Source: Escherichia phage P-GXEC-L2P5
Direction: 5' to 3' (one strand)
Sequence record: PQ843332.1
DNA length: 64,000 bases
Below are positions 3,847 to 57,567 of the stretch, piece by piece (within the stretch, counting starts at the first letter, position 1; each line of letters opens with the position of its first letter). A program made the position numbers and the translations under genes. Below the pieces are notes generated by a model. The model worked only from the letters and a program-made list of their open reading frames with translations. It was not told the origin of the DNA and searched no databases.

Positions 3847-6111
3847 ATGAGCTTAATTAAATTCGCTGTAACACGACCCGCTAAAAAAGGCGAAAAAGCC
3901 AGGGCGGAAAACTTCCAGATGACTACCGAAGAGTTTTTCGAATTTATCAATGATGCGAAAGAAATCTCCTCGGTGCATATCAACAAAACGGAAGATAAAG
4001 CGGAGTATGCGCGCCGCAAGCGTAAGGCTGATGGGATTGTGGCTTATACCAGTGACGGATTACGCCGCAAGACCAGTGCGGTGGATCGCTCGATCCTGTT
4101 CTTCGATATTGACCGTACCGACACCCGCACCCTGCGCCGCTGCCGTAAGGCGTTCATCGACGCGGGACTGGAACATGTATTTCACACCACAACCGGCGAT
4201 CGCCACCCGCTGAAAGGTGGCACGCGTTGCGCTCGTTTCCTGGTGCTCACTGACAAGCCTGTACCGGCTGAAGACCTGGGCCGCGTCCAGTATGCACTAT
4301 TACACCAACTGGGCCTGTCAGATGTGGACTTCGACGATTGCACGAAAGACACAAACCGCCTTATGTACCTGCCTCACCAGCAATCGGTTGTTAAGTGTCA
4401 CTACGGCAAACGTGCCCGCGTCCGTCGTCTGCTTCGCCTGGCTGATAAGCTGGGAGTGGAAAAAGAGGAAGTACGCCGCGAGCTTACCCATGGCGACGAC
4501 GCAGTGGCAGACGGCATTCTGGACTGGTGCTTCCAGGCCGGATTCGAGGAGTTATCTTCTGGTCGCGGTTATGAAGTGCCGTGCCCGAACGAACATCTGC
4601 ATAGTGGCGAAGGGTCCACCGCTATCATGGTTAAGGATGGCGAGATCCGTTTCAAGTGTATGCACACCGGCAACGAGTGCTGTTCCGAACTGAACAGACA
4701 CCAGCACCTGGCGCTACGTCTTATCGGGATCCCGGACCACCTGAACGTCGAACCGCACAACATGTCACGTAAGCAAATCGCCGCCATCCTCCCAGGACTG
4801 GACGACGAGGAAGTGGAATCGTGCTATGCGCATATCGTTGATGCGGTCGGAGACGGCGACGAGTACGGCGGATGTACGGACGCAGACTTGGACAACGAGC
4901 CGGTTGCACTGTTCAGCAAGCACGACCCGATCATCGAGGGGTTGATTAACTTTAAATCGACCTGGTATCTTGCCGGTGAGTCGAACATCGGTAAGTCGTT
5001 CTATGTGCTGGGGCAAATGGGTGCGGTTGCCGCGGGGATTCCGTTCGGCGGCGCGAAGGTCGTCCAGTCTCATTGCTTCTATTTCGACGCGGAAGGTGGC
5101 GAAGCCTCCAACCAGCGTAAGGAAGCATTGCAGATTAAATATGAGCACGACCTGGACAAGCTGCACATTATCGATCTGCAATCACGCGGCTGGGATATCA
5201 CCAGCAAATCCGGCTTGCGTGAAGTTATCAGCTTCATCAACCGCACCGCTAACGGCGAGCCGGTTGGCCTGGTGGCGTTCGACTCACTCAACCAGACTGT
5301 TGCGCTGCGGTCCGCCGATGCTAAACCGTTCGACGAGAACAACGCCAGCGATATGGGTGAAGTGGTCAAAGCGCTGAAGGCCATTGCGGAAAATACAGGC
5401 GGCAGTGCGGGCGTCATCCACCACCCGGCGAAGGGTGCAAACGGCAGCAGATCTCCCCGTGGGTCCGGCGCGCTGCATGGCGCTGTCGATTCTGCGTTCT
5501 TCCTCGAGCAACCGGACGACAATCAGCCGGGCCAATTGAACCTGTATCACGAAAAGGCGCGTAACGGCATCAAGCAAGCGCCGCGCGGCTTCGTCCTGCT
5601 CAAGTGCAAGGTTAAGGTGGATCTCCGCAAGTCCGAAGCGTTCGAATCACACCAGTCCACCAGCACCGGGCCTGACTTCGGCGACGTGGTTGCCGGTTGG
5701 GACGTCAAGCCAATTGCATCCACGCCACGCGACGAGACTCTTTATCTCGTACCTGTCGCCCTGGCACCGTTCGCCATCGAACAGGCGAAGGCCGCGGGCA
5801 AGGCCGCAGTTAAGGATGAGAACGCCGCAGGACCGCGCAATGAAAAAGAGAAAGTGCTTTATGCGGCACTGGAAAAACTGATGGAAGATAACCCGGACCA
5901 TACCGGATTCAGTAAATCGGCAATTGTCCGCCAGGCGGGATTGGCAAAAGGTGGCACATCGACGAAGGCAATAGACGATATGGTGGAGCGCGGCGTGCTC
6001 GGTTTTTATACAGATCCGCACACCGGGGCCATCTATGGGTCGTCGAATATCGTCATTAAAACGAATATACCCATCACGCTTTCTGCGACCGATGACGATC
6101 TGAAAGATTAA
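3847..6111 (+). CDS. DNA primase/helicase (AEP primase-polymerase domain plus RecA-like P-loop NTPase)
   Basis: LFFDIDRTD and HVFHTTTG primase motifs; Walker A-like GESNIGKSFYVLG; 754 aa; start region duplicated at about 3770/3847. Confidence 0.85.
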   Translation: MSLIKFAVTRPAKKGEKARAENFQMTTEEFFEFINDAKEISSVHINKTEDKAEYARRKRKADGIVAYTSDGLRRKTSAVDRSILFFDIDRTDTRTLRRCRKAFIDAGLEHVFHTTTGDRHPLKGGTRCARFLVLTDKPVPAEDLGRVQYALLHQLGLSDVDFDDCTKDTNRLMYLPHQQSVVKCHYGKRARVRRLLRLADKLGVEKEEVRRELTHGDDAVADGILDWCFQAGFEELSSGRGYEVPCPNEHLHSGEGSTAIMVKDGEIRFKCMHTGNECCSELNRHQHLALRLIGIPDHLNVEPHNMSRKQIAAILPGLDDEEVESCYAHIVDAVGDGDEYGGCTDADLDNEPVALFSKHDPIIEGLINFKSTWYLAGESNIGKSFYVLGQMGAVAAGIPFGGAKVVQSHCFYFDAEGGEASNQRKEALQIKYEHDLDKLHIIDLQSRGWDITSKSGLREVISFINRTANGEPVGLVAFDSLNQTVALRSADAKPFDENNASDMGEVVKALKAIAENTGGSAGVIHHPAKGANGSRSPRGSGALHGAVDSAFFLEQPDDNQPGQLNLYHEKARNGIKQAPRGFVLLKCKVKVDLRKSEAFESHQSTSTGPDFGDVVAGWDVKPIASTPRDETLYLVPVALAPFAIEQAKAAGKAAVKDENAAGPRNEKEKVLYAALEKLMEDNPDHTGFSKSAIVRQAGLAKGGTSTKAIDDMVERGVLGFYTDPHTGAIYGSSNIVIKTNIPITLSATDDDLKD

Positions 6112-6255
6112 ATCCTGCGCGCATTGGTTGCCGGTATGGGAATTCCCATATCGCTAAAAGGTTAAATTTTGCGCGCATTGGTTGCCATTTTGAGTGTTTT
6201 TATCGGGTCGTATTGGTTGCCGTGTAGTGTAAATATAATGAATAGTTATGCAGTT

Positions 6256-6428
6256 TTATTGCATAAAGTAAGCGGGACAGAAAGCGGGACAAACAAGGGG
6301 CGGGACAAAGCGGGACAGCACCCCCGTCCCGCCCCGTATGGCGCGGCCTGGAGAGGAGCGGGACAGGCGGGACAACCCCCAGTCTTTCAGACTAGACGGG
6401 GGTCAGCGGCCCCCCTCGTCTGAGACTG
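6256..6428. repeat. iteron array: six GCGGGACA direct repeats preceded by TGCATAAA, then a GC-rich imperfect hairpin
   Basis: GCGGGACA at 6272, 6284, 6299, 6310, 6358, 6367; inverted repeat cagtctttcagactagacggggg / cccccctcgtctgagactg. Confidence 0.7.
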
Positions 6429-6645
6429 AATAAAATCCGGGGATTGCAAAATACACGGCAGCATGATGCGAAGTGCGGTCGCGGATGAACTAGGCAACCA
6501 ATGCGAGTTGCATTATGCGAAGTGAAAAATGCGGTTTGCAGTCACAGCAGATAGCGATCAACTTTTTCATGCGCGTGATTAATATTGGTTGCGTTCCGCC
6601 TGGCACCTTGCTATATTGGTTGCACCCCAACATGAGGACTGAACA

Positions 6646-6972
6646 ATGAAAGCGATTATCTGGAATTACGCAATGGCTATGGCGGCGGCACAAGAAGCGG
6701 CGGAGTTCGCCGGTGAAGGAGCGGAAGCGGTCGAAAGACTATCGGCAGCGTGGTCCGTTGTTCGCGTCACGCAGCAGGCCATCGCTTGTATGCTGGAGCG
6801 CCGCTTCGACACGATGGCGGAGATCCAGCCACTGGCGAACGCAATCCAGGACTACGCGCTTGCATTTGCCCGTGAGCGCCTTGCGTATCGCTTCGGGATC
6901 GGCGAGACGGCAGTGACAAACGTCGCCCGGATTAAAGCCCAGCGTGAACTATTCGCCCAGCTTGCGAAATAA
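6646..6972 (+). CDS. hypothetical protein (108 aa, alanine-rich helical)
   Basis: ORF conserved in unit 2 (56423..56749). Confidence 0.55.
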   Translation: MKAIIWNYAMAMAAAQEAAEFAGEGAEAVERLSAAWSVVRVTQQAIACMLERRFDTMAEIQPLANAIQDYALAFARERLAYRFGIGETAVTNVARIKAQRELFAQLAK

Positions 6973-7209
6973 GGGGCCAAAATGAGCCGTTGACGCAGAC
7001 TCGCTACTTGCACCAGTTCGCAGCGCAACACGATTTCAGGGTGCGGACTTCCTTGCAACCAATGGGAATACGCAGACACGCTACTTGCACCAGTTCGCAG
7101 CAAAACACGATTTCAGGGTGCGGACTTCCTTGCAACCAATGGGAATTCGTATTACATTACGCCGGAAGCCCGCCGTTGAGCGGGTAGGCAAACACTGGAG
7201 ACTGAGCAA

Positions 7210-7464
7210 ATGACGCCAATGCAAATAACGCTAATGGCAGGGTATTCGCAGGAGTTTATCGACCTCGTATCCTGCTATGACGACTACACCCATTACGGCA
7301 TCGCTACGGTATGCGACGGCGACAACCTTACAGCCGACGAGCTTGATGAGGTCGACGACTACACTACCGAGGAACTTTGCGCGCTGATGTGCGGCGTGCC
7401 TGTATGGGCGAAAGAGTCCCCACTAGCCGCAGACGGCGACAACATGTACAGGTACAGAAAGTAA
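7210..7464 (+). CDS. small protein whose C-terminal ~45 aa mimic the DNA polymerase C-terminus; absent from unit 2
   Basis: DDYTTEELCALMCGVPVWAKESPLAADGDNMYRYRK versus polymerase DDYTTEELCALMCDLPIWAKGFPLAAEGDCMYRYRK. Confidence 0.5.
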   Translation: MTPMQITLMAGYSQEFIDLVSCYDDYTHYGIATVCDGDNLTADELDEVDDYTTEELCALMCGVPVWAKESPLAADGDNMYRYRK

Positions 7465-7536
7465 GATTATGAAAGCATCGATTAGCAAAACATTAAACTT
7501 CCCCGCAGCACGGTTAAACTTTAAGGAGACAGAACA

Positions 7537-8109
7537 ATGAAATTACTATTCCGCCGTAAGCACGATGGCCGTATCCTGAAGCCGATCCAAACCCTGGATT
7601 CCCACGTCCGCTTACAAAACGCGGCTGGCGGTCGGGTGTGGTGGGCAAAGAAATACACGCTGCCGGAAAACTTCGACGTACTAACTCACGATATCGAGCG
7701 CGGCGATGTGCTGCGTGATATTCGCGACGGCGGATTGTGGGTCGTCGAGTATGTCGGCCGTCATGGCCTGCGTATGCAATCCCGCAAGGATGGCGTAGTG
7801 GGTAACATACAGAGGGGTATGACGTACTTTGGGCTAATCAACTACGAGCGAGTGGGGCGCAAGTACAGCCTGCGCGACCGCCAGCCTCATGAGCGCGTTG
7901 AGTTCCGCAAGTCGCAGCCCGCGTATGCCACTTACGACGCGAGCAAAGTGATGGAGCCGATCCGCCAGGCCACGCGTGAGATAGTCAATCGCTTTGATGC
8001 CGTGACGAATGCACAGCGCCAGGCGCGGGAATACGGTGTGGGATTTATCCGTGTCGAACCAGACGGCAGCATGAAGGCCATCGACCCGCGCTCGGTGATT
8101 ATGAAATGA
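7537..8109 (+). CDS. hypothetical protein (190 aa)
   Basis: ORF with GGAGA RBS; conserved in unit 2 (57025..57567). Confidence 0.55.
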   Translation: MKLLFRRKHDGRILKPIQTLDSHVRLQNAAGGRVWWAKKYTLPENFDVLTHDIERGDVLRDIRDGGLWVVEYVGRHGLRMQSRKDGVVGNIQRGMTYFGLINYERVGRKYSLRDRQPHERVEFRKSQPAYATYDASKVMEPIRQATREIVNRFDAVTNAQRQAREYGVGFIRVEPDGSMKAIDPRSVIMK

Positions 8110-8252
8110 GTGCGTCTATCCGTGATATGCTCATGCACAACCGCTTTGAGATAGGCGGTCGGGTGTTTCGCAATTACTTCGTGGCGCGTGCATGGGCGCG
8201 CCATATTGGCAAACCGGAAGGGGCAATTCGATGCTATACGTCTTCGCGGTAG
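8106..8252 (+). CDS. small hypothetical protein (48 aa)
   Basis: ATGA overlap with the upstream stop; conserved in unit 2. Confidence 0.3.
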   Translation: MSASIRDMLMHNRFEIGGRVFRNYFVARAWARHIGKPEGAIRCYTSSR

Positions 8253-8316
8253 TATGTGGCGGTAGTCTGGCGGCCCTGGTGCTGTTGGCGTCGGTTATTA
8301 GTCTGGTTAAATACCT

Positions 8317-8616
8317 ATGGGGCAGATTATGATTCATGATGTGATTTATTGGTTTGGTATGGCCAGCATGTTATGCCTGGTTACGGGAGTGCTGGGCGCA
8401 ATATGGGTATTCCTGGTATGGCCTGCGGTGGAAGCTGCCAGCATTACCCGGATGACATTCGAGATCTACAAGCGCCGTGGAATAACGGAGCACCCGACCA
8501 GGCTTCGGATGTGGTGGCTGTGGTATCGGGATATGATAGGCGGTCGAACATTCGAAGCCGTCCGCTCATCCGGGTGGGAGTGGAAAGGCGTCGGCAAGTT
8601 GTCCGTTTTCGATTAA
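8317..8616 (+). CDS. small membrane protein (lysis-associated candidate)
   Basis: Hydrophobic segment FGMASMLCLVTGVLGAIWVFLVW; identical ORF in unit 2. Confidence 0.45.
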   Translation: MGQIMIHDVIYWFGMASMLCLVTGVLGAIWVFLVWPAVEAASITRMTFEIYKRRGITEHPTRLRMWWLWYRDMIGGRTFEAVRSSGWEWKGVGKLSVFD

Positions 8617-8668
8617 TTATGCAAGCGTGATATAGTCCCAGTGAGCTAAAACTTACTGGGACTTTTTT

Positions 8669-9007
8669 ATGGATAAGCTAAACGAGTGGTTATTCGCCCT
8701 CGCATGTCTGGCTGGCGGCTTCGTAGGCGCACGCATTCATGGCGAGGCTACGAAAGGGCCGCTAAACTTCGTGTTATATATCGTGGTCGGCTTCTTGTGT
8801 GCCGTTTTTGGCGCTCCAGCGATTGCCGAGTGGGCGGGCTTATCTGGTGAGCGCACTGTCGCCGGTTTGGGGTTCGTAACTGCAATCTTCTGGATGCCAA
8901 TAGCCGCCCGGATCAGGGAGACTATTGAGTCGTTCCGACTTCCGGGGGCGCAAAATGATTATCTCCGTCCTGTTGTTTGTTATCATCGGGGCTTCGTCCC
9001 TGTTTAA
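8669..9007 (+). CDS. holin-like membrane protein; C-terminus differs from unit 2 by a 1-nt indel
   Basis: Two or three predicted transmembrane segments; directly upstream of the endolysin. Confidence 0.5.
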   Translation: MDKLNEWLFALACLAGGFVGARIHGEATKGPLNFVLYIVVGFLCAVFGAPAIAEWAGLSGERTVAGLGFVTAIFWMPIAARIRETIESFRLPGAQNDYLRPVVCYHRGFVPV

Positions 9008-9031
9008 CGTGTATGCGCCGGGGGGCGCAAA

Positions 9032-9277
9032 ATGATTATCTCCGTCCTGTTGTTTGTTATCATCGGGGCTTCGTCCCTGTTTAACGTGTATGCGCCGTCC
9101 GTCCGGGATGGCATTTTCGGTCGGGTGCTATATCTGCTAACGGCGATGATCTGCGTTATCGGATTGTTGCAAACAGGAGACGTATCTGACACCACCTGGA
9201 CCGCGTTAATCTGGCTGTTTGCATTGCGCACGCTGCGTAATGCTGTTTTGAATGGGGTAAAACATGCGATTCAGTGA
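9032..9277 (+). CDS. small membrane protein (holin/antiholin candidate)
   Basis: MIISVLLFVIIGASSLF and LLTAMICVIGLL hydrophobic segments; overlaps the endolysin start. Confidence 0.5.
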   Translation: MIISVLLFVIIGASSLFNVYAPSVRDGIFGRVLYLLTAMICVIGLLQTGDVSDTTWTALIWLFALRTLRNAVLNGVKHAIQ

Positions 9278-21307: not shown

Positions 21308-21661
21308 ATGGCGGGCTTTAATTACGCAGGATTAAAGCGGAAAGTGAATCCGCTGATTAAAAAATTCGGCATGACCGTTACGGTTACGCGTCCGGGATCG
21401 GTTGACCGTGTAGACGGCGACGAAGTGGTAATCCCGCCAACGTCGTTTGACGTCATCGGTCTTCGCGAGGAGTACAAGCCTAGCGAGATCGACGGAACGC
21501 GTATCGTTGCCGGTGATGTGAAGTTTTTATGTCGGGCGGTTGAGCAATTGCGGGTGGGCGACCTTGTTAACCTGAACGGCACTGACTACCGGGTAGTCAA
21601 CCCGAACCCACTGCAACCGGCTGGCACTACCATGCTGTTTCAACTACAGCTAAGGGGCTAA
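21308..21661 (+). CDS. putative head-tail joining protein
   Basis: 117-aa ORF in the head-tail junction block. Confidence 0.4.
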   Translation: MAGFNYAGLKRKVNPLIKKFGMTVTVTRPGSVDRVDGDEVVIPPTSFDVIGLREEYKPSEIDGTRIVAGDVKFLCRAVEQLRVGDLVNLNGTDYRVVNPNPLQPAGTTMLFQLQLRG

Positions 21662-21739
21662 CGTGGCTGAAGTCTACTCATTCGCCGCCACTATTGCTAC
21701 GTACGACCATGCTGTTTCAACTACAGCTAAGGGGATAAC

Positions 21740-22487
21740 GTGGCTGAAGTCTACTCATTCGCCGCCACTATTGCTACGTGGGTGGATAAGACGAAGGAGA
21801 ACAACGATAAGGCGGTGCGGGCGTACGGAATGCAAATACTCGGACGCCTTATTGAGATCTCCCCGGTGGGCGACCCTCGCCGGTGGAAGATTAACAAGGC
21901 CTACGCGCTTGCACGCGAACACGCGAACAAGGTGAACGCCGCGCAGCGCCGCAAGAATGGCGGCAAACTGAAGCGCGGGCAGAAGAAGCACGCCAGTGTG
22001 CTCATCTCATTCAAAACTAAAAACGGCAACGTCACGTTCCGCCAGCGTGGCTGGGCTGCGAAGAATTACACCGGCGGACGCTTCCATTCAAGACTAAAAA
22101 CGGCAACGTCACGTTCCGCCAGCGTGGCTGGGCTGCGAAGAATTACACCGGCGGACGCTTCCGGGGAAACTGGCAGGTTACGTTCGACCGACCGGCGGTC
22201 GGCGCTATTGACCGCGTGGACAAGGCCGGAACGGCAACATTAGCCGCAGGGCGTGAAGTGCTGGCGCATTACGATTCCGGTGAATACGCCGCGTGGACAA
22301 GGCCGGAACGGCAACATTAGCCGCTGGGCGTGAAGTGCTGGCGCATTACGATTCCGGTGAATACGGGTCGATCTGGTTTACTAACAACGTGCCATACGCG
22401 CAGCGACTTGAGTATGGCTGGAGTAAACAAGCGCCCGCGGGGATTGTTCGCGTCGTAGCGGCAGAAATTAATTCGAAGGTGAAATAA
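21740..22487 (+). CDS. putative head closure / tail attachment protein (HK97 gp10-like); frame broken by duplications
   Basis: ORFs 21740..22243 and 22293..22487 are contiguous once duplications are collapsed. Confidence 0.4.
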
Positions 22488-22909
22488 TGAGCAATACCGC
22501 AATCCGCAAAGCGCTTAACAGCGTGGTTGAAGAGTTATCGGCAAGCCTGAGCACAAGCCAGCGTCCGATTAGGGTTAACTGGGAGAACGTGAGCGGCGAC
22601 CACGCAAACGGCAGCGGTGTCTACCTGGAGCCGTACCTGCTACCGGCCCCGACCCAGTTTGTGGGCTTACAGCAGAAGGGTCGGATCTATGCTGGCGTAT
22701 ATCAGGTTGCCGTGGTGTTTCCCGCGGGAACTGGAACACAGTACGCGAGCGAACTGGCGGACGCCATCACTACGTCTGATAAGTGGCTGGCGGTGAAGAT
22801 TTCCGGTGCGTCATTTCAGATTCAGGACGCGCCATACACCAGTTCAGTGATTGAAGACGTTGATCGCGCCCGCATCGTGGTTACAGTACCCTACACCTGT
22901 TGCGCCTGA
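22487..22909 (+). CDS. putative tail completion protein
   Basis: 140-aa ORF immediately upstream of the major tail gene. Confidence 0.4.
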   Translation: MSNTAIRKALNSVVEELSASLSTSQRPIRVNWENVSGDHANGSGVYLEPYLLPAPTQFVGLQQKGRIYAGVYQVAVVFPAGTGTQYASELADAITTSDKWLAVKISGASFQIQDAPYTSSVIEDVDRARIVVTVPYTCCA

Positions 22910-22970
22910 TTTGGCGCTATTCTGCGCGTGCTGTATCATTAAACCGTATATCTAAACAGGAGCGTTCATT

Positions 22971-23850
22971 ATGGGTTATCAACTTCCTAACGGGTCTAGC
23001 GTCCAGATTGGGTCCGTACTGGGCAACGGCATCGCTGTTACGGCAGCTACCAACGCCGCCGCGTCGATCTCCGACCTTACGCAAGGTTGCGTAATTACCT
23101 GCGCGGAGTCTCACGGTCTGGCTGTTGGCGACGTTGTTATGTTCACTAAAACCCCGTGGGTCCGTGCGCTGAACCGCGCGTTCATCGTTGGTAAAGTATC
23201 GGGGAACGACGTTACACTGGCGCGCTTCGATACTCAAGACGCCACCAAATACCCGACCGGTGCTTTCGGCGTAGGCACACCAGGCGAGGTGGTGAAGGTG
23301 TCGAGCTTTATCGACTTCCCGTTTATCACTATACCGGTGCTTTCGGCGTAGGCACACCAGGCGAGGTGGTGAAGGTGTCGAGCTTTATCGACTTCCCGTT
23401 TATCACTAACGTCGCCGTGTCTGGTGGCGACCAGCAGACTACTACCTTCCAGCCGTTGCAGGTGAATACCGCGATTAGTCTGAACACCACGAAAAACCCG
23501 TTGGTCCAGACTTACACCTTCACCCATGACGAAGAAGACCCGATCCGCCCAATCCTGGAAGACCTGGACGACACACAGAAAACCACTGTGATTAAGTTCA
23601 CTAACCCGGCAGCGGCAAGCGGCAAAGGTGAGATCCGCATTTACCCGGCTAAGGTGTCTTTCCGGAAGATTCCATCGGCTGAAGAGCGGCAGCAAGCGGC
23701 AAAGGTGAGATTCGCATTTACCCGGCTAAGGTGTCTTTCCGGAAGATTCCATCGGCTGAAGTAAACAACGTGGAGACGGTGGAGTCCACTCTGACCATGC
23801 AATCCGATATGGTTATTTACCGTAAGGACCTGGTTGAAGCGCTGTCGTAA
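22971..23850 (+). CDS. major tail (tube) protein; frame broken by duplications
   Basis: About 250 aa; followed by a strong terminator and then the chaperone genes. Confidence 0.65.
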
Positions 23851-30928: not shown

Positions 30929-33900
30929 ATGACGATTATCTACGACGTCACAGGCCATAAAGGCGGCGGCGGCAAACAGCACACCCCACAGGAGACGCCG
31001 GACAGCCTGCATTCGCTGGCTAAAATCCGCATCTTGCTCGCACTGGGCGAAGGTGAGTTCGAAGGCATTACCGACCCTAACGAATTACGGCAGCGCGTAT
31101 ACCTGGACGGAACACCGATCCAGAACGCCGACCTGTCAGAAAACTTCCCCGGCGCGCGCGTGGAGTTCCGCCCAGGCACACAGCACCAGGACGTGATCCA
31201 CGGATTTTCAGCGGTGGAAAGTGAGCAATCCGTAGGCGTAAAACTGGAAAACGGCACGCCGTGGGTGCGCCAGATTAACGACACCAGTCTTGACGCCGTG
31301 CGCATTCGAATCGGCATTCCGGCCCTGTACACCAACGAAGACAACGGCGACCTGGTGGGCGGGCGCATCGACTACAAAATCGTTGTGTATACGGACAACG
31401 CTGATCCGCGTGAGTTTACCTTCGCTGCCGTTGGTAAAACAATGTCGCTGTACGAGCGCGACCACCGCATCGAGTTACCGCCGAACGTGAATACCGGCTG
31501 GCGCGTGGAAGTTCACCGCACAACGGCAGATTCCACATCGGCGAAAGTGGTGAACGATATTCAGGTACAGTCCATCACTGAGATTATTGACGCCCGCCTG
31601 CGTTACCCGCTAACCGCGCTGTTGTTTGTGGAGTTCGACGCCAAAGCGTTCCAGAACATCCCGCGCGTGTCCATTAAGTGCAAAGGTCGCAAAGTTCTAA
31701 TACCGAACAACTACGACCCGATCAATCATACCTATGCCGGGTACTGGGACGGCACGTTTAAACGCGCATGGACGGATAACCCTGCGTGGCACTGGTACGA
31801 TATTTGTATTACTGAGCGCTTCGGCCTCGGTCGGTTAAACGCGCATGGACGGATAACCCTGCGTGGCACTGGTATGATATTTGTATTACTGAGCGCTTCG
31901 GCCTCGGTCGCCGGATCAAGCCGCAAATGCTAAACAGATATGCGCTCTACCAGATTGCGAAGCGCTGCGATCAACTGGTCAGCGACGGCAACGGCGGGCA
32001 GGAAATCCGATTTAAGAATGATATGTACATCCAGTCGCAGACCGACGCCTGGACCGTGCTTAAGGATTTAGCCGCCATCTTTGCCGGTATGACCTGGTGG
32101 GGCAACCAGATGTTGAATATTGTAAGCGATCAGCCGGTCGCAGCGGTATCGCACACTATCACCAACGCCTCGGTCATTGATGGTCGATTCGACTACGCGT
32201 CAGGGAGCCAGAAAACTCGGTATTCCACGTTCGCTGTAGCATACGGCAACCCGAAGAACCACTATGAAGATGCCATTGCTACGGGACAGCGTGTCGAACT
32301 GGTACGCCGCCATAAGATTAACCGTCTGGATATAACGGCGATCGGCTGTACGCGTGAGTCAGAAGCGCAACGCCGCGGGCACTGGGCGCTAATCTCCAAC
32401 CAGCTTGACCAGCAAGTTAGCTTTAAGGTTGGCATGGAGGGACTTTTCTTTATTCCGGGTAGTGTAGTCGCGATCGCCGATACAAACATTTCTGGCGGCT
32501 TCGAGACACGCGGCGGTCGCCTGTTGTCAGATCCTGGCACGCGGACTGTGCTGAACACAGACAGCGAAATCACGTTCCGCCCTGGGGATAAATTCCTGGT
32601 ACGCACCGATAGCGGTAATGTGGAGACTCGCGAGATTGCCAGCGTCAACGGCAACAAGGTTACGCTAAAAACCGCACTGGACGCCGACCCGATTCCTGAT
32701 CAGCCGTTTTGCGTCGATGGCAACGATATCCAGTTGCAGAAGTTCCGCATCACCGACCTGGAATATGACGACTCTACCAGCACTTTTTCAGTGCGCGGGA
32801 TCGAATACAACGATAGCAAATATGATGCCGTTGATAATGGCGCTCGCCTTGACCCAGGCATCTTTACGCAAGTTCCTGACGGCGTAATGAAGGGGCCGGA
32901 GTCCGTGACCATTACCCCGTCGCAGATTTCATCGCAAGGCCAGCTAATCACCAACGTGGATATTGTGTTCCCGCCGGTGAAGGATGCCGTTGTTTATGAG
33001 ATCCAGTGGCGACGTACCAGCTTGCAGAATATGGCGGTACAGTGGGGAAACGACTGGGTAAACATCCCCCGCACGGCATCGAACGGCGCGCACATCCCTA
33101 ACGTGTTCTCCGGTAACTACCAAGCGCGCGTCCGCGCGATCGGTATGGGCGAGATTTCATCCCCGTGGGTGTCGTCCGCTATCACGCCGGTGGAAGGTCG
33201 TCTCGGCGGTCTTAACGCGCCTATCATCACCAACGCGATTTCGGGCCTTCACCAAATTTTGTGGAAGTGGAACCACAACAACGCCGCGACGGATATTTCG
33301 TACACCGAGCTTGAAGTTCGCAAGACGGGTGAAACGGAATGGAAATTCCTAACCAACGTCCCATACCCGGGGTCGGAGTATGCGCAAACGTCGCTGGAGT
33401 TCGGCATCTATCAGCAGTTGCGCGCCCGTGTAGCGGATAAAATCGGCAACCTGTCGGACTGGTCGGCCCCGTTTGAAGGGCAGGTGAGCAGCAGTTGCGC
33501 GCCCGTGTCGCGGATAAAATCGGCAACCTGTCGGACTGGTCGGCCCCGTTTGAAGGGCAGGTGAGTGACAATGTTGACGAGTACATGAAGGGGCTGGACG
33601 ACGAGTTCTTGACTTCTGAGGACGGTAAACGCTTCCAGGAAGCGATCGACACCATGCCGCAAGGCATTTATGAGGCTATGCTCACCGACGCACAGCAATT
33701 GTTTAACGCCCGCGCCGAGTACAAGGGGATTTATGCAGAAATCTCGGTCGCGTATAACGTGGCGGCAGATGCCCACCAGGCGGTAGCGCAACTGGAAACG
33801 TTGATCGGTACTCGCCTTGACGATGCGGAAGCGGCAATCCACACGTTGCAGACCGCGCAAAGCACGCACGAGCAAGCGTTCGCCCAGTACCAACAAACTG

Positions 33901-44270: not shown

Positions 44271-44549
44271 CTATGCGACCAATTCAGCAACCAATAAATC
44301 GCAGTCGGATATGTTGTCGATAACGCGAACGTCAGCACCGCGGCGGGCCATTCGCTCATGTTCACGTACCTGGTGCGGCTTCGGTTTTCCTCCGGGGCGC
44401 TTCACTTCGACGAACACTATTTTGCCGTTGATGATAATAATCAGGTCGGGCGCACCCGCGCGCCCCTCCCATGCCAGTTTTCGGCAGAAGCCGCCAACCT
44501 CTTTCACCCGTCGCATCAGGTGGCTTTGAATCTTGCCTTCTGGTGTCAT
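44271..44549 (-). CDS. VRR-NUC domain nuclease
   Basis: GAPDLIIIINGKIVFVEVKRPGGK PD-(D/E)XK core; ATGA overlap with the HNH stop. Confidence 0.6.
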   Translation of the reverse strand: MTPEGKIQSHLMRRVKEVGGFCRKLAWEGRAGAPDLIIIINGKIVFVEVKRPGGKPKPHQVREHERMARRGADVRVIDNISDCDLLVAELVA

Positions 44550-45148
44550 TGTCGGCTTTTCCTTACGGCCGCGATGGCCGGTCCGATAAACTTCTTCATT
44601 TCGTCCGGGGTAAACCGGTCCCCGCGGGCTATGTTGCACTCTACGCAGCACGGCACGCAGTTATCTTTCGTATGGCCTACTGCGTTGTCGAGTCGGTCCG
44701 CGCCATTGTCGCCGGTGAATCCGCAGTATGCGCATGGTTGAGAAGTAAGGCGTAGCACGTCCTCGGTGGTTAGGTCGGTGGTTAGCCCCTTCCTTTCGTC
44801 CGCCTTACGGTACTGAAAGAGCTTATAGTAAGCTCGGATCTCTGGTGTCCGGTGGTTGTACTCACGGCGGGACTTATTAGAGCACGACCTGCATTCTTTA
44901 CGAATGTGTGACTGGCTTGCCCGGTTTCCGGGCCGGAAGTTTTCCGGCGTAAGCGGCTTGCGTTCCCCGCACTGACGGCACGTTACGATCTCCCCGGTAT
45001 ACTCTCGCCATACTTCGCGCGGCGGCGCTCCTCTTTCCTTATCACGTCTCTCTTTCTTATACGCCGCCATGCATTTGGCACACCACGACTGACCCTTGTT
45101 GAAAGCGGACTCATCTTTATCCGTATTACAACGCCCACAATGTTTCAT
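44546..45148 (-). CDS. HNH endonuclease (zinc-finger rich)
   Basis: CAYCGFTGDNGADRLDN...GHTKDNCVPCCVECNIAR HNH core, several CxxC pairs, GGGGGG RBS. Confidence 0.7.
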   Translation of the reverse strand: MKHCGRCNTDKDESAFNKGQSWCAKCMAAYKKERRDKERGAPPREVWREYTGEIVTCRQCGERKPLTPENFRPGNRASQSHIRKECRSCSNKSRREYNHRTPEIRAYYKLFQYRKADERKGLTTDLTTEDVLRLTSQPCAYCGFTGDNGADRLDNAVGHTKDNCVPCCVECNIARGDRFTPDEMKKFIGPAIAAVRKSRQ

Positions 45149-45214
45149 ATACCCCCCGAAAAAGAAAACGCCAGACAATATTGCCTGACGTTTCCGCTAA
45201 AAGCAACATTTCCG

Positions 45215-48200
45215 CTACTTGCGGTATCGATACATACAATCGCCCTCTGCGGCAAGTGGGAAGCCTTTCGCCCAAATCGGCAGGTCGCACATCAGCGCGC
45301 AAAGTTCCTCGGTCGTGTAGTCGTCAGTGTCCGGCACTTCGGTGATCAATTCATCGTGCACTGACAGGACGATTTCATAGCCCGCAGCTTCAACGCCAGG
45401 CATGGACCACGCGAGAATATCGCGACACAACGCTTGCACGATGTTCTCCGTAAGTTTGCCGCCGTAGGTGTACTGGAATCCCCACTGGCGCGTCGTCTGA
45501 TTCTCGCCCTGATATTTGATGCGGGTACTGGTGCGCTTCTTGCCGGTGTCTTCGTCGATCTCGGTCGTGACAGACAGTGCGATGCCGGGGTAGCTCATGA
45601 TGCGCCCCGACGGCAACTCAATTTTTAACCACCACCCCGCGGCGTTCGGGTCGTCGCGCTCCTCGTCAAAGGTTGGGTCGTGCTTCGCCTTCGTACGGAC
45701 AATCTTGAGCGCTTTTCTACCGTCCGGGCGAACGTTCGCACCAGCCCAGTATGCTTTGCCCGGATTGCGGATTGCACACAACACCGCGTCCTCAAGCTCG
45801 GCCCAAAAGGCTACCGTCTTCGGGTGAGCCTCACGCCACATACGTTTGATCGCGTCACAAGTAAGCCATACGTTTTTCGGCAGTATGTAAGTCGGGCGCT
45901 CGTCCTTCTTGCCCGGCTTCGGTGGGCGTTTCGCTTCGTTAATGCGGGCGTACTCATAACCGCGCTTCGCCGCCGCCCAAATGTGATCCGGGAACGTGCC
46001 TTTCATCACGTCCGCCATAGTGTAAAGGTCGAGTCCCAGGTTTTTAGCGAACTGCAAGAACGCCGCGACGCCGCCACCATAGCCCAGGCCAAGCTCGCAG
46101 TTATGCGCCACCAGAAAACCAGACTTAGACGCAATAAGGAACCGGTTTCCGTCTTCCACATCAATCAGGTCGTAAACCGGCTCGCAATAGGTTAACTTCC
46201 CGTTCCAGTTCAGCAATGCGGGTAAGGGCTTCATCGTACTTTCTCTGAAGCTCGGGCACGCTGCGCCGGTTACGGCAGTTTTCCGAACGGCTGACAAACC
46301 GAAGGTTTCCAGGCTCATAGTTGCCGTCTGTATCGATCCGGTCCATTTCGAAGTCGGGATTATCCCAGCCGTCCAGCGTTTGAACGTAGAGAAGAAACGA
46401 CCTTTTATCTCTCTTCCATTCGTCACATACGGCAATCCCACGACTGCCGTAGTTTTTATACCCTTTGGCGCGGGGGTTTGTCGTTCGTGATATTGCCGCT
46501 GACAGCCGGTTGAGCAGCCGCGTTCTGTGCGCATCGTCTGGCATTGCGTCATCGTAGCAAAAATACTGTTTACGATACCGCTTTGTCGCTTCAATTGCGC
46601 AGAGGTTGCATTGGGATGTTTTACCCCTTCGGACGTTGTCATACCCGACGCGTCCTGGCATCGCTCCGCAATCACATTGGGCCAGCAGTTGTCTGTGCCC
46701 CTGTCGTTTTGGTAATTCGCGCAGGATAACCAGGCGTCCATACCTCTCGCCAGGGCGCGGGCCATCGTGCACCTGTCTGAAACGAGTTGCCTTGCCTCCT
46801 TCCATGAATGCGTCAAGATTTTGTGGTCTTCTGTCATCAAGACCCCGTCCACGTCTATCACTGGTTTCCACCCCATAAGGTGCGCGCCTTGTGTACTCAC
46901 CCATTTTTCGCCGTTCCATACTTTATCCGTTGATGTTACGGCCATAATATCCTTGAACCCGCCATTGGTCAATACTTGGGTATGGCGGTGCAAGCAAGCC
47001 TTACCGATCTGGCGTAAGTCCTTGCGGTTAGCTTTAATGTAATCCGGGTCCAGGCCGAACATTTTACCGGCAGTCTCGCAATAAATATCGCGACCGGCCT
47101 TAAACACCATTAACGCGGTTTTCTCGCCAGCGACCCAGGCAAGGCCGCGCCCTTCCACGTTGGAGTAGTCCGCGACGACAAACTTCTTGCCCTTAGCCGG
47201 AATGATGCACCCGCGAACGGTCGAGGCGGTTAGCTTCGATATGTCATACGCCCAGTGCGCTGTCCCGCGTAACAGGGAGTTGATGCCGTTGGTGAGCATG
47301 TGCGACCGAACCCAAAACGAGACGTCGCTTTCACCCTCGCGGCGTTTAATCTTCCCTTCGTGGTCGTCGCTGTACTCGCCACGCGCCAGGTTTTGAGGTT
47401 GAAAGCCTTTACCGGCCCAGCGTAGCGTGCGCTTTGCCCCACCATACTGAAGACACCCACGGCGGCGACCATCTGCGGATAAGCCGTTAACTAGCGGATT
47501 GTACTTAGTCGATGCCGTTGATGACGCTCCGAGGCGCATTTCTATAAGCGCTTTGCCTTCGTCGGGGAAGTCCGGGTCTTCAAGCAGGTCGTTAAGTGTG
47601 GATTTCTGCGCGTTGTGGATTGTGAACGCCGGGGCGATATCACGCAGGATTGGCAGGAAGTCATTGCCTGTCAGTTTACCACCAAATCGCTCCCAGGCTT
47701 CTTCCTTCAATTCTTCCTTATGCGCCTGCACCGCTTTGATCGCGGCGTTCGCCAGGTCAACGTCGACGTAGAAGCCGCGGTCGTTAATCAACTGGTCGAT
47801 GAGCAGGATTTCATCTTCCTTAGGCGAGTTTCCCCAGTCCGGTATGCGCCAGTAGACTTCACGCATTGCGATAATATCCAGCGCGGCATAGCGCAGAAAT
47901 TTGGCCCATTCTTCCGGGTGAGTCTCGCGAGTGTAGCGGCGGATTTTGTAGGTCTTAGGGGTAGGCTTACAGAATCGGTTAATCAGCGCCTTGCCTGCCT
48001 TATCCTTCGCGTGCTCTGCGTCAACGCCCAGAACCTGGCACTGCATATCGAGGCTACCGGGCAGCGCGTGGCGAAAGGCCATAATCATAGTGTCTTCGAT
48101 CTGGCTTACCGGCAGGTCAATACCCCACTTCTCGCGGATAACCAGGCGGTCAAACAGGAGGCCGTTAGCCATCACTATTTTAGCCTTCTTGCGGGATACC

Positions 48201-48403
48201 CGGCGGAGCGCCTTGCGCAGTTCACGCGGCATTGTGGGGGATTCAGTGGCATCCCATGTCTGCACGCGGCCCTCGTCTATGGCGTAGGTGCAAATCATAA
48301 TCTCTGTGGTTGGGTGCTCCGCGTAGGCGTACGCCCCAACTTTCTTCAGGTCCACCCCGCTAAATGTCTCGGTGTCGAGAAACAGGCGTTCGAAGTCTTT
48401 CAT
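45215..48403 (-). CDS. DNA polymerase, family A, with 3'-5' exonuclease domain and an intein inserted in motif B
   Basis: Exo LDTET; motif A DYSNVEGR; motif B split as RQIGK | intein | ELGLGYGGG; motif C VHDE; continuous 1062-aa ORF. Confidence 0.85.
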   Translation of the reverse strand: MKDFERLFLDTETFSGVDLKKVGAYAYAEHPTTEIMICTYAIDEGRVQTWDATESPTMPRELRKALRRVSRKKAKIVMANGLLFDRLVIREKWGIDLPVSQIEDTMIMAFRHALPGSLDMQCQVLGVDAEHAKDKAGKALINRFCKPTPKTYKIRRYTRETHPEEWAKFLRYAALDIIAMREVYWRIPDWGNSPKEDEILLIDQLINDRGFYVDVDLANAAIKAVQAHKEELKEEAWERFGGKLTGNDFLPILRDIAPAFTIHNAQKSTLNDLLEDPDFPDEGKALIEMRLGASSTASTKYNPLVNGLSADGRRRGCLQYGGAKRTLRWAGKGFQPQNLARGEYSDDHEGKIKRREGESDVSFWVRSHMLTNGINSLLRGTAHWAYDISKLTASTVRGCIIPAKGKKFVVADYSNVEGRGLAWVAGEKTALMVFKAGRDIYCETAGKMFGLDPDYIKANRKDLRQIGKACLHRHTQVLTNGGFKDIMAVTSTDKVWNGEKWVSTQGAHLMGWKPVIDVDGVLMTEDHKILTHSWKEARQLVSDRCTMARALARGMDAWLSCANYQNDRGTDNCWPNVIAERCQDASGMTTSEGVKHPNATSAQLKRQSGIVNSIFATMTQCQTMRTERGCSTGCQRQYHERQTPAPKGIKTTAVVGLPYVTNGREIKGRFFSTFKRWTAGIIPTSKWTGSIQTATMSLETFGLSAVRKTAVTGAACPSFRESTMKPLPALLNWNGKLTYCEPVYDLIDVEDGNRFLIASKSGFLVAHNCELGLGYGGGVAAFLQFAKNLGLDLYTMADVMKGTFPDHIWAAAKRGYEYARINEAKRPPKPGKKDERPTYILPKNVWLTCDAIKRMWREAHPKTVAFWAELEDAVLCAIRNPGKAYWAGANVRPDGRKALKIVRTKAKHDPTFDEERDDPNAAGWWLKIELPSGRIMSYPGIALSVTTEIDEDTGKKRTSTRIKYQGENQTTRQWGFQYTYGGKLTENIVQALCRDILAWSMPGVEAAGYEIVLSVHDELITEVPDTDDYTTEELCALMCDLPIWAKGFPLAAEGDCMYRYRK
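46100..46996 (-). mobile_element. intein (Hint domain) within the DNA polymerase
   Basis: Block A CLHRHTQVLTNGGFKDI, block B LMTEDHKILT, block F/G PVYDLIDVEDGNRFLIASKSGFLVAHN followed by Cys. Confidence 0.75.
46161..46919 (-). CDS. HNH homing endonuclease domain encoded inside the intein in a different frame from the polymerase
   Basis: GERYGRLVIL...CDCG...SQCNLC zinc region, GYKNYGSRGIAVCDEW, DRIDTDGNYEPGNLRFVSRSENCRNRR. Confidence 0.6.
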   Translation of the reverse strand: MERRKMGEYTRRAPYGVETSDRRGRGLDDRRPQNLDAFMEGGKATRFRQVHDGPRPGERYGRLVILRELPKRQGHRQLLAQCDCGAMPGRVGYDNVRRGKTSQCNLCAIEATKRYRKQYFCYDDAMPDDAHRTRLLNRLSAAISRTTNPRAKGYKNYGSRGIAVCDEWKRDKRSFLLYVQTLDGWDNPDFEMDRIDTDGNYEPGNLRFVSRSENCRNRRSVPELQRKYDEALTRIAELEREVNLLRAGLRPD

Positions 48404-48583: not shown

Positions 48584-48609
48584 GTTAAAAAGCCCGCATT
48601 AAGCGGGCT
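48584..48609 (-). terminator. rho-independent terminator on the minus strand
   Basis: AAGCCCGC-ttaat-GCGGGCTT followed by a T run on the minus strand; copied again at about 48663 by an artefact duplication. Confidence 0.6.
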
Positions 48610-48782
48610 TGAATAGTGGGCTTTGCCCTTAACGGCGGCGACGGTTACGTGGTGCTTCGTCTTAAAAAGCCCGCATTAAGCGGGCTTGAATAGTGGGCTT
48701 TGCCCTTAACGGCGGCGACGTTTACGTGGTGCTTCGTCTTCGTCGTCGTCCATTAAGCGGGCTTGAATAGTGGGCTTTGCCC

Positions 48783-55959: not shown

Positions 55960-56030
55960 ATCCTATTTTGAGTGTTTTTAGCTGGTCGCATTGGTTGCCG
56001 TGCAGTATAAATATAGTGAATAGTTATGCA

Positions 56031-56749: not shown

Positions 56750-57024
56750 GAGGCCAAAATGACCCGTAGACGCGCAAAACAGCTTTCGTGGCATATCCCC
56801 CTGCATTGCATACGAATATGGGCTAAGAATGCGAATGCGGGGGACTCTGTGTACTGGTGCTATCGCGACGACGTTAAGCCGTTGACGCAGACTCGCTACT
56901 TGCACCAGTTCGCCGCGCAACATGATTTCTATGTGCGGACCTCCTTGCAACCAATGGGGATCCGTATTACATTACGCCGGAAGCCCGCAGTCGAGCGGGT
57001 AGGCAAACACTGGAGACTGAGCAA

Positions 57025-57567
57025 ATGAAATTACTATTCCGCCGAAAATCAGATGGCCGCATTCTTAAGCCAATACAGACCCTTGACACCCATGTGCGAC
57101 TTCACCACGCCGCAAGCGATCGTGTCTGGTGGGCGAATAAGGCAAAGCTGCCGGAGAAATACGAAATCCTCACGCATGATATTGAGCGCGGCGATGTGCT
57201 GCGTGATATTCGCGACGGGCAATTGTGGGTCGTTGAGCACACCAGCCAGCACGGCTTGCGTATGCAAACCCGCAAGGGCGGAGTAGTGGGTAACATACAG
57301 AGGGTTATGACGTACTTCGGGCTAATCCACTACGAGCGCGTGGGGCGCAAATACTGCCTGCGCAACCGCCAGCCTCATGAGCGCGCAACCTACGACTCCC
57401 ACCAGGTGCAAGCGAAGATGGGCCGCGCCGTACACCAAATCGTCAATCGCTTTGATGCCGTGACGAACGCACAACGCCATGCGCAGGAATACGGTGTTGG
57501 ATTCATCCAGGTGGAACGAGACGGCAGCATGAAAGCCATCGACCCGCGCTCGGTGATTCTGAAATGA
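57025..57567 (+). CDS. unit 2: hypothetical protein (homolog of 7537..8109)
   Basis: ORF, 180 aa. Confidence 0.55.
   Translation: MKLLFRRKSDGRILKPIQTLDTHVRLHHAASDRVWWANKAKLPEKYEILTHDIERGDVLRDIRDGQLWVVEHTSQHGLRMQTRKGGVVGNIQRVMTYFGLIHYERVGRKYCLRNRQPHERATYDSHQVQAKMGRAVHQIVNRFDAVTNAQRHAQEYGVGFIQVERDGSMKAIDPRSVILK

What the first reader, a model, noticed from the sequence alone, without database searches (positions are those of the whole stretch)
7201..7500. Small ORF mimicking the DNA polymerase C-terminus, present only in unit 1
The 84-aa ORF 7210..7464 ends with ~35 residues nearly identical to the polymerase C-terminus, with a ~35-nt near-identical nucleotide stretch, although the polymerase lies ~38 kb away on the other strand. 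Unit 2 lacks the whole ~290-bp segment. It could be a relic of recombination or homing, or a competitive fragment of the polymerase C-terminal region.
Basis: seen in the sequence. Interest (0 to 1): 0.6.

Follow-up and report, generated by a model that had tools for sequence, protein, structure and literature searches.

The report
Accessory phage ORF carrying polymerase-tail copy
A small non-essential gene of an E. coli Dhillonvirus phage has picked up a roughly 125-135-bp copy of the end of the phage's DNA polymerase gene; it is a real but ordinary product of sloppy recombination, with little sign that the copied piece does anything.

Summary
ORF 7210..7464 (84 aa) ends in 37 codons copied from the 3' end of the family-A DNA polymerase gene (110 nt, 82% identical, inverted; BLASTP 30/41, E=4e-19).

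The ORF is not an assembly error. The segment is 100% identical to cultured Dhillonviruses slur05 and slur06, and at least six further variants exist.

It is a chimera. Residues 1-47 belong to a small, hypervariable accessory family (phrog_15977, unknown function), found in 46 of about 158 Dhillonvirus records. From 7354 to 7477 (possibly 7487) the sequence copies the polymerase tail, its stop codon, a 4-nt spacer and the first codons of the gene downstream of the polymerase. The unit transferred was therefore DNA, not a protein domain. The left junction sits on a 6-nt microhomology (CGACGA).

Constraint on the copied tail is relaxed: pN/pS is 0.67, against 0.08 for the same codons in polymerases. 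AlphaFold confidence is poor (pLDDT 45). The fused form is rare (3 isolates).

The best reading is a templated insertion by illegitimate recombination into a dispensable, deletion-prone gene slot, with the tail a largely unconstrained passenger. A competitive polymerase fragment is unsupported.

The window itself is a strain-mixing assembly walk with about 65 untrimmed 77-nt overlaps, so "unit 1" and "unit 2" are different strains.

The parts
7186..7209 (+). Conserved upstream anchor and ribosome-binding region (GGCAAACACTGGAGACTGAGCAA) shared by all Dhillonvirus versions of this slot, whether filled or empty
   Evidence: The 18-nt core GGCAAACACTGGAGACTG (7187-7204) is invariant in alignments A1 and A3. 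It was used as the search anchor. The remaining bases vary in one sequence.
7210..7464 (+). Chimeric 84-aa ORF (slur05 gp43 / slur06_00040; annotated 'hypothetical protein'; its homologue in Lzu_P1 is mis-annotated 'DNA polymerase I')
7210..7352 (+). 5' half: resident small accessory gene, family phrog_15977 (unknown function). Conserved core G[FY]SQ..[IV].L..C..(D)Y...GIATVCDGD. Hypervariable between phages.
   Evidence: phrog_15977 E=6e-17 over residues 4-48. Homologues without the tail occur in 46 records. Mean 74% nt identity among fused variants. pN/pS 0.43.
7353..7358 (+). Left junction: 6-nt microhomology CGACGA shared by the resident gene (BEK2-2 type ...GAGATCGACGAA...) and the polymerase (...ACCGACGACTAC...)
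   Evidence: Alignments
7354..7464 (+). Polymerase-derived coding tail: last 36 polymerase codons plus the stop (DDYTTEELCALMC..P.WAK..PLAA.GD.MYRYRK*)
   Evidence: phrog_7766 'DNA polymerase' positions 145-185 of 186, E=2e-9.
7465..7487 (+). Polymerase-locus-derived non-coding spacer GATT plus the first codons (ATGAAAGCA, certain to 7477; weaker similarity to AGCA at 7484-7487) of the 63-aa phrog_1222 gene that follows the polymerase in HNH-less phages
   Evidence: (hits reaching query position 273-286)
7469..7540 (+). Mini-ORF of 23 codons opened by the captured start codon. It ends in an ATGA overlap with the start of the next gene. Open in all six fused variants examined, including one with an in-frame 3-nt indel. 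Possible translational coupling (inference).
7497..7536 (+). Remnant of the resident locus: the 3' end of the 69-aa BEK2-2-type ORF, now non-coding, plus the ribosome-binding site GGAGAC of the next gene. Second arm of the short repeat across which the whole ORF is missing in unit 2, EP23 and SO-1.
7537..8109 (+). Downstream gene (190 aa, phrog_10243, unknown function), conserved in all versions of the locus
45215..45325 (-). 3' end of the family-A DNA polymerase gene in the window (paralogue of the tail). Here it is the HNH-linked, synonymously recoded allele.
44546..45178 (-). Free-standing HNH/EndoVII-like endonuclease gene located about 36 nt downstream of the polymerase stop codon, occupying the place of the 63-aa gene
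   Evidence: phrog_1035 E=4e-43. Same arrangement in SO-1 gp37 and SM_S22 CDS0042.
57001..57030 (+). Empty version of the slot in unit 2 (EP23-like strain)
6993..7146 (.). Artefactual 77-nt tandem duplication (join of two assembly segments) just upstream of the ORF. Absent from slur05/06.

Best explanation
The 84-aa ORF is a natural chimeric gene in a dispensable, hypervariable 'moron' slot of Dhillonviruses, between the primase-helicase region and the phrog_10243 gene. An ancestral small accessory gene (phrog_15977 family, probably a longer BEK2-2-like form) acquired a 125-135-bp templated insertion. The insertion was copied from the junction between the phage's own-type DNA polymerase gene and its downstream gene, in a polymerase locus that carried the 63-aa gene and no HNH. 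It arose by illegitimate, microhomology-mediated recombination or template switching: the left join lies in CGACGA and the right join near ATGAAAGCA/AGCA. The insert happened to be in frame, so the accessory protein now ends in the last 36 residues of the polymerase. The captured ribosome-binding site and ATG of the neighbour gene open a 23-codon mini-ORF that restores coupling to the next gene. The capture happened once. The tail then split into two alleles and was shuffled by homologous recombination onto several old N-terminal alleles. In most lineages the region was lost again by deletion between short GGAGAC repeats, giving the 44-50-aa short forms and the empty sites such as unit 2. The tail is translated but is essentially an unconstrained passenger; whatever function exists lies in the N-terminal core. 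Shown: the anatomy, distribution, single origin and relaxed constraint. Inferred: the recombination mechanism, the polarity of the deletions and the lack of function.
For: The segment 7205-7540 is 100% identical to isolates slur05 and slur06. The two halves have different homologues: positions 1-145 match 'hypothetical protein' at the same locus in other phages, and positions 149-286 match polymerase 3' ends plus their downstream gene. Two PHROG families match the two halves. The copy includes the stop codon, the GATT spacer and ATGAAAGCA of the phrog_1222 gene. All fused variants share the same right junction and 3' flank, which indicates one event. pS among fused variants is 0.47 in the N-terminal half but 0.15 in the tail, so the tail is younger than the N-terminal alleles it sits on. 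pN/pS is 0.08 for polymerase tails and 0.67 for ORF tails. The tail diverges as fast as the adjacent non-coding flank (89% against 92.5% identity). The slot holds at least six alternative contents, including nothing. The fused form is rare: 4 of about 158 records, only slur05 in IMG/VR and none in JGI metagenomes. There is no Pfam hit, and AlphaFold gives pLDDT 45. The tail is no closer to the polymerase of its own genome than to other polymerases, so there is no ongoing gene conversion.
Against: No variant among eight has a frameshift or stop in the tail, and indels near the junction and in the mini-ORF are all multiples of three. However, those indels lie in 9-nt or codon-phased repeats, and broken variants would be classified as other forms. 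The two type-B tails differ by 4 synonymous and 4 non-synonymous changes (my count from the alignment). This hints at some constraint, but the counts are too few to test. The tail has persisted long enough to diverge about 20% and to occur on four N-terminal backgrounds, which is unexpected for useless DNA in a size-limited phage genome. The right junction is not sharply defined, and no extant recipient allele matches the sequence 7488-7510 well.
Confidence: 0.62

Rival explanations
1. The fused protein is functional because of the tail. The polymerase-derived C-terminus either gives the accessory domain a structural element, for example the CxxxC at C57/C61 replacing the CxxC of the 69-aa form as metal ligands. 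Or it acts as a mimic or decoy that binds whatever recognises the polymerase C-terminal region, such as a replisome partner, a folding intermediate of the polymerase, or a host defence sensor.
For: The tail stays in frame in eight diverged variants carrying two tail alleles, and the blocks EELCA.MC, P.WAKG and RYRK are conserved. The tail has been recombined onto at least four N-terminal allele types. The two type-B tails show 4 synonymous and 4 non-synonymous changes (my count). The Dhillonvirus polymerase is known to be sensed by a defence system, Borvo (bioRxiv 10.1101/2022.08.27.505566).
Against: pN/pS is 0.67, against 0.08 in the polymerase. The form is rare and easily lost. Borvo escape mutations map to the proofreading cleft, not the C-terminus. 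In family-A polymerases the residues after motif C (SVHDE) form part of the palm and are not a flexible docking peptide (established knowledge of Klenow and T7 gp5 structures). AlphaFold finds no confident fold. One Cys of the CxxxC is Arg in Lzu_P1. The transferred unit includes non-coding DNA, so it was not selected as a domain at the time of capture.
Confidence: 0.22
2. The feature is selected or generated at the DNA level in connection with homing. The copied stretch is an ectopic copy of the HNH-less homing site at the polymerase 3' end. It would be either a by-product of endonuclease-induced break repair, or a second target, decoy or repair template that influences homing of the free-standing HNH gene found after the polymerase in SO-1, SM_S22 and the window.
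For: The copy spans 111 nt upstream and at least 13 nt downstream of the exact point where the HNH cassette begins in HNH-positive phages. All three HNH-positive genomes share a recoded last ~10 polymerase codons even though their upstream polymerase sequences differ, as expected for a co-conversion or immunity tract of a mobile endonuclease. The ectopic copy keeps the HNH-less version of that sequence.
Against: No endonuclease gene lies in or beside the small-ORF slot in any of the ten fused-form loci and records examined. The fused form occurs in HNH-less phages (slur06, Lzu_P1). Break repair normally copies donor sequence into the broken site, so a cut at the polymerase would not create a copy elsewhere. 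The cleavage site of this HNH is unknown. The co-occurrence of HNH and fused ORF in 'unit 1' is an assembly artefact.
Confidence: 0.1
3. The ORF or its similarity to the polymerase is an assembly chimera.
For: The window is demonstrably an artefactual walk: about 65 tandem 77-nt duplications, and a switch of strain identity at about 22.3 kb and 49.5 kb.
Against: The whole ORF with its flanks lies inside one segment (7070-9020). It is 100% identical to two independently sequenced isolates. It recurs with the same architecture in Lzu_P1 and in six independent ENA/Logan assemblies.
Confidence: 0.02

Closest known systems
Phage genome mosaicism by illegitimate recombination at short homologies, and 'moron' slots (the Hendrix/Hatfull model; from general knowledge, not re-read here)
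   Same: A small dispensable gene sits between conserved genes. Many alternative contents occur at one slot, including none. The novel joint lies at a 6-nt microhomology, and loss occurs by deletion between short repeats.
   Different: The inserted DNA comes from an essential gene of the same type of genome rather than from foreign DNA. It happens to be in frame, so a recognisable polymerase peptide is expressed on an unrelated protein.
Free-standing homing endonucleases with co-conversion of flanking markers (for example T4 mobE/segG-type intronless homing; PMC2790892 surfaced, only its abstract seen)
   Same: An HNH gene sits about 36 nt after the stop of a conserved essential gene. It is sporadically distributed and is linked to a recoded flank. 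The copied stretch spans that site.
   Different: The small ORF locus carries no endonuclease, and nothing shows that the copy was made by or for homing.
Split or fragmented polymerase genes (phrog_7766; 'fractured genes', PMC2677866 surfaced, abstract only; P0018 and P0019)
   Same: They are separate ORFs that end in the same polymerase C-terminal sequence.
   Different: Those fragments are 92-186 aa, include motif C (VHDE) and complement an N-terminal polymerase fragment. Here only the 36-41 residues after motif C are present, fused to an unrelated domain, while an intact polymerase is also present.
Polymerase C-terminal peptides that compete for a processivity factor
   Different: Those are family-B polymerases whose extreme C-terminus is a flexible docking motif. 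In family-A enzymes the homologous stretch is part of the palm. No partner, no sequence constraint and no confident fold were found here.

Membership tests
DNA polymerase family A (PF00476), as the Lzu_P1 homologue is annotated | Significant match to the family profile and presence of catalytic motifs A, B and C | tested here: not met
   No Pfam hit for the 84-aa ORF. BLASTP similarity covers only the 41 residues after motif C. The N-terminal half has unrelated homologues.
phrog_15977 small accessory proteins of Dhillonviruses (function unknown) | Profile match over the ~47-residue core, and the same genomic slot | tested here: met
   E=6e-17, residues 4-48 against profile positions 1-45 of 47. 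Same flanks in all loci.
Homing-endonuclease cassette or relic | Endonuclease gene (HNH, GIY-YIG, LAGLIDADG and others), or its remnant, at or next to the site | tested here: not met
   The neighbours are phrog_9839 and phrog_10243 (unknown function, no nuclease match). No extra ORF was called between the small ORF and its neighbours in the fused-form loci.
Homing-endonuclease cassette or relic | The copied sequence contains the endonuclease's cleavage or recognition site | not testable with these tools
   Only indirect evidence is available: the copy spans the HNH insertion point, and HNH-positive phages share a recoded flank. A cleavage assay is needed.
Split polymerase C-terminal subunit (phrog_7766 type) | Contains motif C and the preceding palm/fingers elements, and the genome lacks an intact polymerase | tested here: not met
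   The match is limited to profile positions 145-185 of 186. slur06 and Lzu_P1 encode an intact 763-aa polymerase.
Assembly artefact | Absent from independently sequenced genomes, or spanning an assembly join | tested here: not met
   100% identity to slur05/06. The joins lie at 6993-7146 and 8944-9097, outside the ORF.

The most novel reading that the evidence does not exclude
The polymerase-tail module is a selected, translated mimic. By displaying the polymerase's C-terminal helix-strand on an accessory domain, the phage would titrate or blind a factor that recognises the polymerase, such as a host immune sensor or a replisome or folding partner. Alternatively, the ectopic intact copy of the HNH homing site would act as a decoy or repair template that lets HNH-less phages resist invasion by the endonuclease gene.
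Probability: 0.1. Interest if true: 0.65.

Novelty: new member of a known kind. Interest (0 to 1): 0.25.

Why it matters
This is a clean, datable example of how phage accessory genes are built. An ectopic, microhomology-mediated copy of an essential-gene junction was fused in frame, then shuffled among alleles and repeatedly deleted. It explains a misleading 'DNA polymerase I' annotation of a 78-aa protein in Lzu_P1. If the tail proved functional, it would be a rare case of a phage using a fragment of its own polymerase as a mimic. If the homing link proved real, it would show ectopic copies of homing sites arising in phage genomes. As it stands, the feature is a minor evolutionary curiosity. 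The practical lesson is that the window is a chimeric assembly walk, so features linked across it should not be assumed to share a genome.

Tried and rejected
1. Whole ORF derived from the last ~84 polymerase residues ('AGY...VHDE' against 'AGYS...CYDD'): rejected. BLASTP and DNA alignments show no similarity upstream of CGACGAC, and the N-terminal half exists without the tail in 46 records.

2. Structure route: AlphaFold2 on a 10-sequence alignment gave pLDDT 45 and pTM 0.30, so no fold search was attempted.

3. PDB sequence search with the polymerase C-terminal 295 aa gave no useful hit. The statement that the tail is part of the palm therefore rests on motif C and general knowledge of family-A polymerases.

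4. Link to known Dhillonvirus defence interactions: Borvo senses the polymerase, but escape sites lie in the exonuclease cleft. The anti-Tmn gene ORF35 of SM_S22 appears, by CDS numbering, to be CDS0035 at 25.9-26.4 kb, a different locus (the equation of ORF35 with CDS0035 is my inference).

5. Search for more fused loci with the diagnostic right junction: only slur05 in IMG/VR and none in JGI metagenomes.

6. Promoter and terminator scan of 6000-8400: no more sites than in shuffled sequence, and none within the ORF or its insert.

7. Concerted evolution or flip-flop inversion between the two inverted copies: rejected. The tails are not closer to the polymerase of their own genome, and all fetched genomes are colinear.

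8. Assembly chimera as the origin of the ORF: rejected.

Full report
**What the window is**

The region around the finding is Dhillonvirus DNA (HK578-like E. coli siphophages). Window 6400-8200 matches 157 phage records, and window 7205-7540 is 100% identical to the cultured phages slur05 and slur06.

The window as a whole is not a faithful genome.
- Tandem Repeats Finder reports about 65 duplications of exactly 77 nt, 2.0 copies each, every 0.3-1.7 kb. None occur in the corresponding EP23 and slur05 loci.
- blastn of the window against slur06 shows consecutive segments whose subject coordinates overlap by 76-77 nt.
- Identity to slur06 is 97.4-100% (mostly above 99%) for window 1-22288. It is mostly 86-97% (down to 79% in one segment) for 22289-49530, where the polymerase region is SO-1-like. 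It is mostly 90-96% (84-85% in two segments) from 49531 onward, where the small-ORF slot is EP23-like.

The window is therefore a walk through a mixed-strain assembly with untrimmed 77-nt joins. This explains the 49.7-kb 'unit' length against real genomes of 44-45 kb. It also means that the small ORF and the intein- and HNH-bearing polymerase of 'unit 1' probably come from different phages. The nearest joins (6993-7146 and 8944-9097) lie outside the ORF.

**The observation**

ORF 7210..7464 (84 aa) is present.
- Its last 41 residues align with the last 41 of the polymerase ORF 45215..48403(-) at 30/41 identity, E=4e-19.
- The DNA forms a 110-nt inverted repeat at 82%.
- In the real genome slur06, both copies coexist: ORF 31618..31872(+) and polA 21407..23698(-), about 10 kb apart and differing at 17 of 111 nt.
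- Unit 2 lacks the ORF through a clean 327-bp difference bounded by GGAGACTGAGCAAATGA and GGAGACAGAACAATGA.

**Anatomy**

The ORF is a chimera. blastn splits it into two parts.
- Query positions 1-145 match a 'hypothetical protein' at the same locus in other Dhillonviruses, at 77-88% identity.
- Query positions 149-273/286 match the polymerase 3' end plus the gene downstream of it, at up to 88%.

PHROGs agrees. Residues 4-48 match phrog_15977 (unknown function, E=6e-17). Residues 44-84 match the end of phrog_7766 'DNA polymerase'. Pfam finds nothing.

The N-terminal family exists in several forms:
- a 44-50-aa short form (bov11C2, SM_S22);
- a 69-aa Cys/His-rich form (BEK2-2, UAE_MI-01);
- a frameshifted form (P0020);
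- the polymerase-tailed form.

Other phages have unrelated ORFs, or nothing, in the same slot. Of about 158 Dhillonvirus records, 46 carry the N-terminal half. Only 4 records (slur05 twice, slur06, Lzu_P1) carry the fused form.

Further fused variants come from ENA and Logan assemblies (P0002, P0003, P0005, P0006, P0014). IMG/VR has only slur05, and the JGI metagenomes have none.

**What was copied**

Aligned with polymerase loci that lack the downstream HNH (rolling, JLBYU37, slur06), the similarity starts at GACGACTAC (7354). It runs through the polymerase stop codon (7462-7464), the 4-nt spacer GATT and ATGAAAGCA, which are the first codons of the 63-aa phrog_1222 gene. It then fades by AGCA at 7484-7487.

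The transferred unit was therefore a 125-135-bp piece of DNA spanning an intergenic junction, not a protein domain.

The left join lies in a 6-nt microhomology, CGACGA, shared by the BEK2-2-type resident sequence and the polymerase. After the insert, the locus resumes with the 3' end of the BEK2-2-type ORF, now non-coding, and the ribosome-binding site of the next gene.

The captured ATG opens a 23-24-codon mini-ORF (7469..7540). It ends in an ATGA overlap with the phrog_10243 gene and is open in all six variants examined, including one with a 3-nt indel. Coupling to the next gene is an inference.

**History**

All fused variants share the same right junction and 3' flank, which indicates one capture.
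- Synonymous divergence among fused variants is 0.47 in the N-terminal half but only 0.15 in the tail.
- The tail occurs on at least four N-terminal allele types.
- The tail has two alleles: A, DVPVWAKG.PLAAEGDNMYRYRK; and B, PPVWAKGL.PAFCGG.MNRYRK.

The tail therefore spread onto older N-terminal alleles by homologous recombination.

Divergence of ORF tails from polymerase tails (pS 0.33-0.64) is as large as divergence among polymerases. No sampled polymerase is more than 88% identical to the tail, so the capture is old.

The short forms end in EETEQ*, which corresponds to the KETEQ* end of the mini-ORF. This fits deletion between GGAGAC repeats. The empty sites fit deletion between the two ribosome-binding-site/start repeats. 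The polarity of these deletions is inferred.

**Selection**

| Region compared | pN/pS | Source |
|---|---|---|
| Same 36 codons in polymerases | 0.08 | |
| ORF tails | 0.67 (0.66 without P0006) | |
| N-terminal half | 0.43 | |

The tail is no better conserved than the adjacent non-coding flank: 89% against 92.5% mean identity.

Against pure neutrality:
- no stop or frameshift occurs in eight variants;
- all indels are multiples of three;
- the two type-B tails differ by 4 synonymous and 4 non-synonymous changes (my count from the alignment).

These counts are small. The indels lie in codon-phased repeats, and disrupted copies would be counted as other forms.

AlphaFold2 gives pLDDT 45.

**The homing angle**

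In the window, SO-1 and SM_S22, an HNH/EndoVII-like gene (44546..45178; phrog_1035, E=4e-43) lies about 36 nt downstream of the polymerase stop, in place of the 63-aa gene.

All three phages share the same recoded last ~10 polymerase codons (GGCGATTGTATGTATCGATACCGCAAGTAG), although their upstream polymerase sequences differ. This pattern is expected for a mobile endonuclease with a co-converted or immunising flank.

The ectopic copy spans that very point and keeps the HNH-less version of the sequence. That is suggestive. However, no nuclease gene lies at the small-ORF slot, and the fused form occurs in HNH-less phages. The apparent co-occurrence in 'unit 1' is an assembly artefact.

**Comparison with what is known**

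The phenomenon matches phage mosaicism by illegitimate recombination in a moron slot.
- It is not a polymerase: it has no motifs A-C.
- It is not a split-polymerase subunit. P0018 and P0019 show what those look like: 92-176 aa, with VHDE.
- It is not a homing cassette.

The competitor-peptide idea has precedents in family-B polymerases, whose extreme C-terminus docks a clamp. In family-A enzymes the stretch after motif C belongs to the palm (general knowledge).

A defence system that senses the Dhillonvirus polymerase, Borvo, is escaped by mutations in the exonuclease cleft, not the C-terminus.

I found no paper describing this ORF. The records call it 'hypothetical protein', or wrongly 'DNA polymerase I'.

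**Verdict**

The recombination-relic reading is right, and the competitive-fragment reading is unsupported. It is a new example of a known kind of event and of low to moderate interest.

Noticed in passing
whole window; e.g. 391-544, 6993-7146, 8944-9097, 48585-48817: About 65 tandem duplications of exactly 77 nt (2.0 copies, 92-100% identical) occur every 0.3-1.7 kb and are absent from reference Dhillonvirus genomes. Strain identity relative to slur06 switches at about 22.3 kb and 49.5 kb. The window looks like an assembly-graph walk with untrimmed k=77 joins across mixed strains. The duplicated copies are not always identical, which a pure de Bruijn overlap would not give.
   Followed up: partly
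window 45215-48403 (-), inner ORF 46161-46919 (-): The polymerase ORF is 1062 aa, against 763 aa in slur06. The extra ~300 codons read through in the polymerase frame and carry intein signatures (start C-LHRHTQVLTNGGF, end FLVAHN|C, inserted in motif B after RQIGKA). A 252-aa ORF, annotated HNH endonuclease in SO-1 (gp39), lies inside it in another frame. SO-1 annotates the insert as a group I intron, while Pubbukkers annotates an intein. It looks like an intein with an out-of-frame homing endonuclease.
   Followed up: no
window 44546-45240 (-); L026 (SO-1), L028 (SM_S22): A free-standing HNH/EndoVII-like gene replaces the 63-aa phrog_1222 gene just downstream of the polymerase stop. HNH-positive phages share a synonymously recoded last ~10 polymerase codons irrespective of their upstream polymerase lineage, which looks like a co-conversion or immunity tract. 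The slot after the polymerase has three states: the 63-aa gene, nothing (the polymerase stop overlapping the VRR-NUC start, as in EP23 and Lzu_P1), or HNH.
   Followed up: partly
window 6187-6441, 24748-25148, 55965-56219: A repeated intergenic element of about 190-255 nt is present at two loci per genome. It has GCGGGACA boxes and a strong GC hairpin (AGACGGGGGTCA..GGCCCCCCTCGTCT), with inverted copies of the box region (6296-6332 against 24678-24714). It is possibly a terminator or regulatory module.
   Followed up: no
window 7186-7540 and loci L005-L015: The slot between the conserved GGCAAACACTGGAGACTG ribosome-binding region and the phrog_10243 gene holds at least six unrelated or alternative small ORFs in different Dhillonviruses. 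The N-terminal half of the phrog_15977 gene is far more divergent (mean 74% nt identity) than its flanks. It is a recombination and diversification hotspot of unknown function.
   Followed up: partly
L001/L019 (Lzu_P1) 1633-1869 of PQ295795.1: The 78-aa homologue of the ORF is annotated 'DNA polymerase I' in GenBank and UniRef. This over-annotation is caused by the 37-residue polymerase tail.
   Followed up: yes
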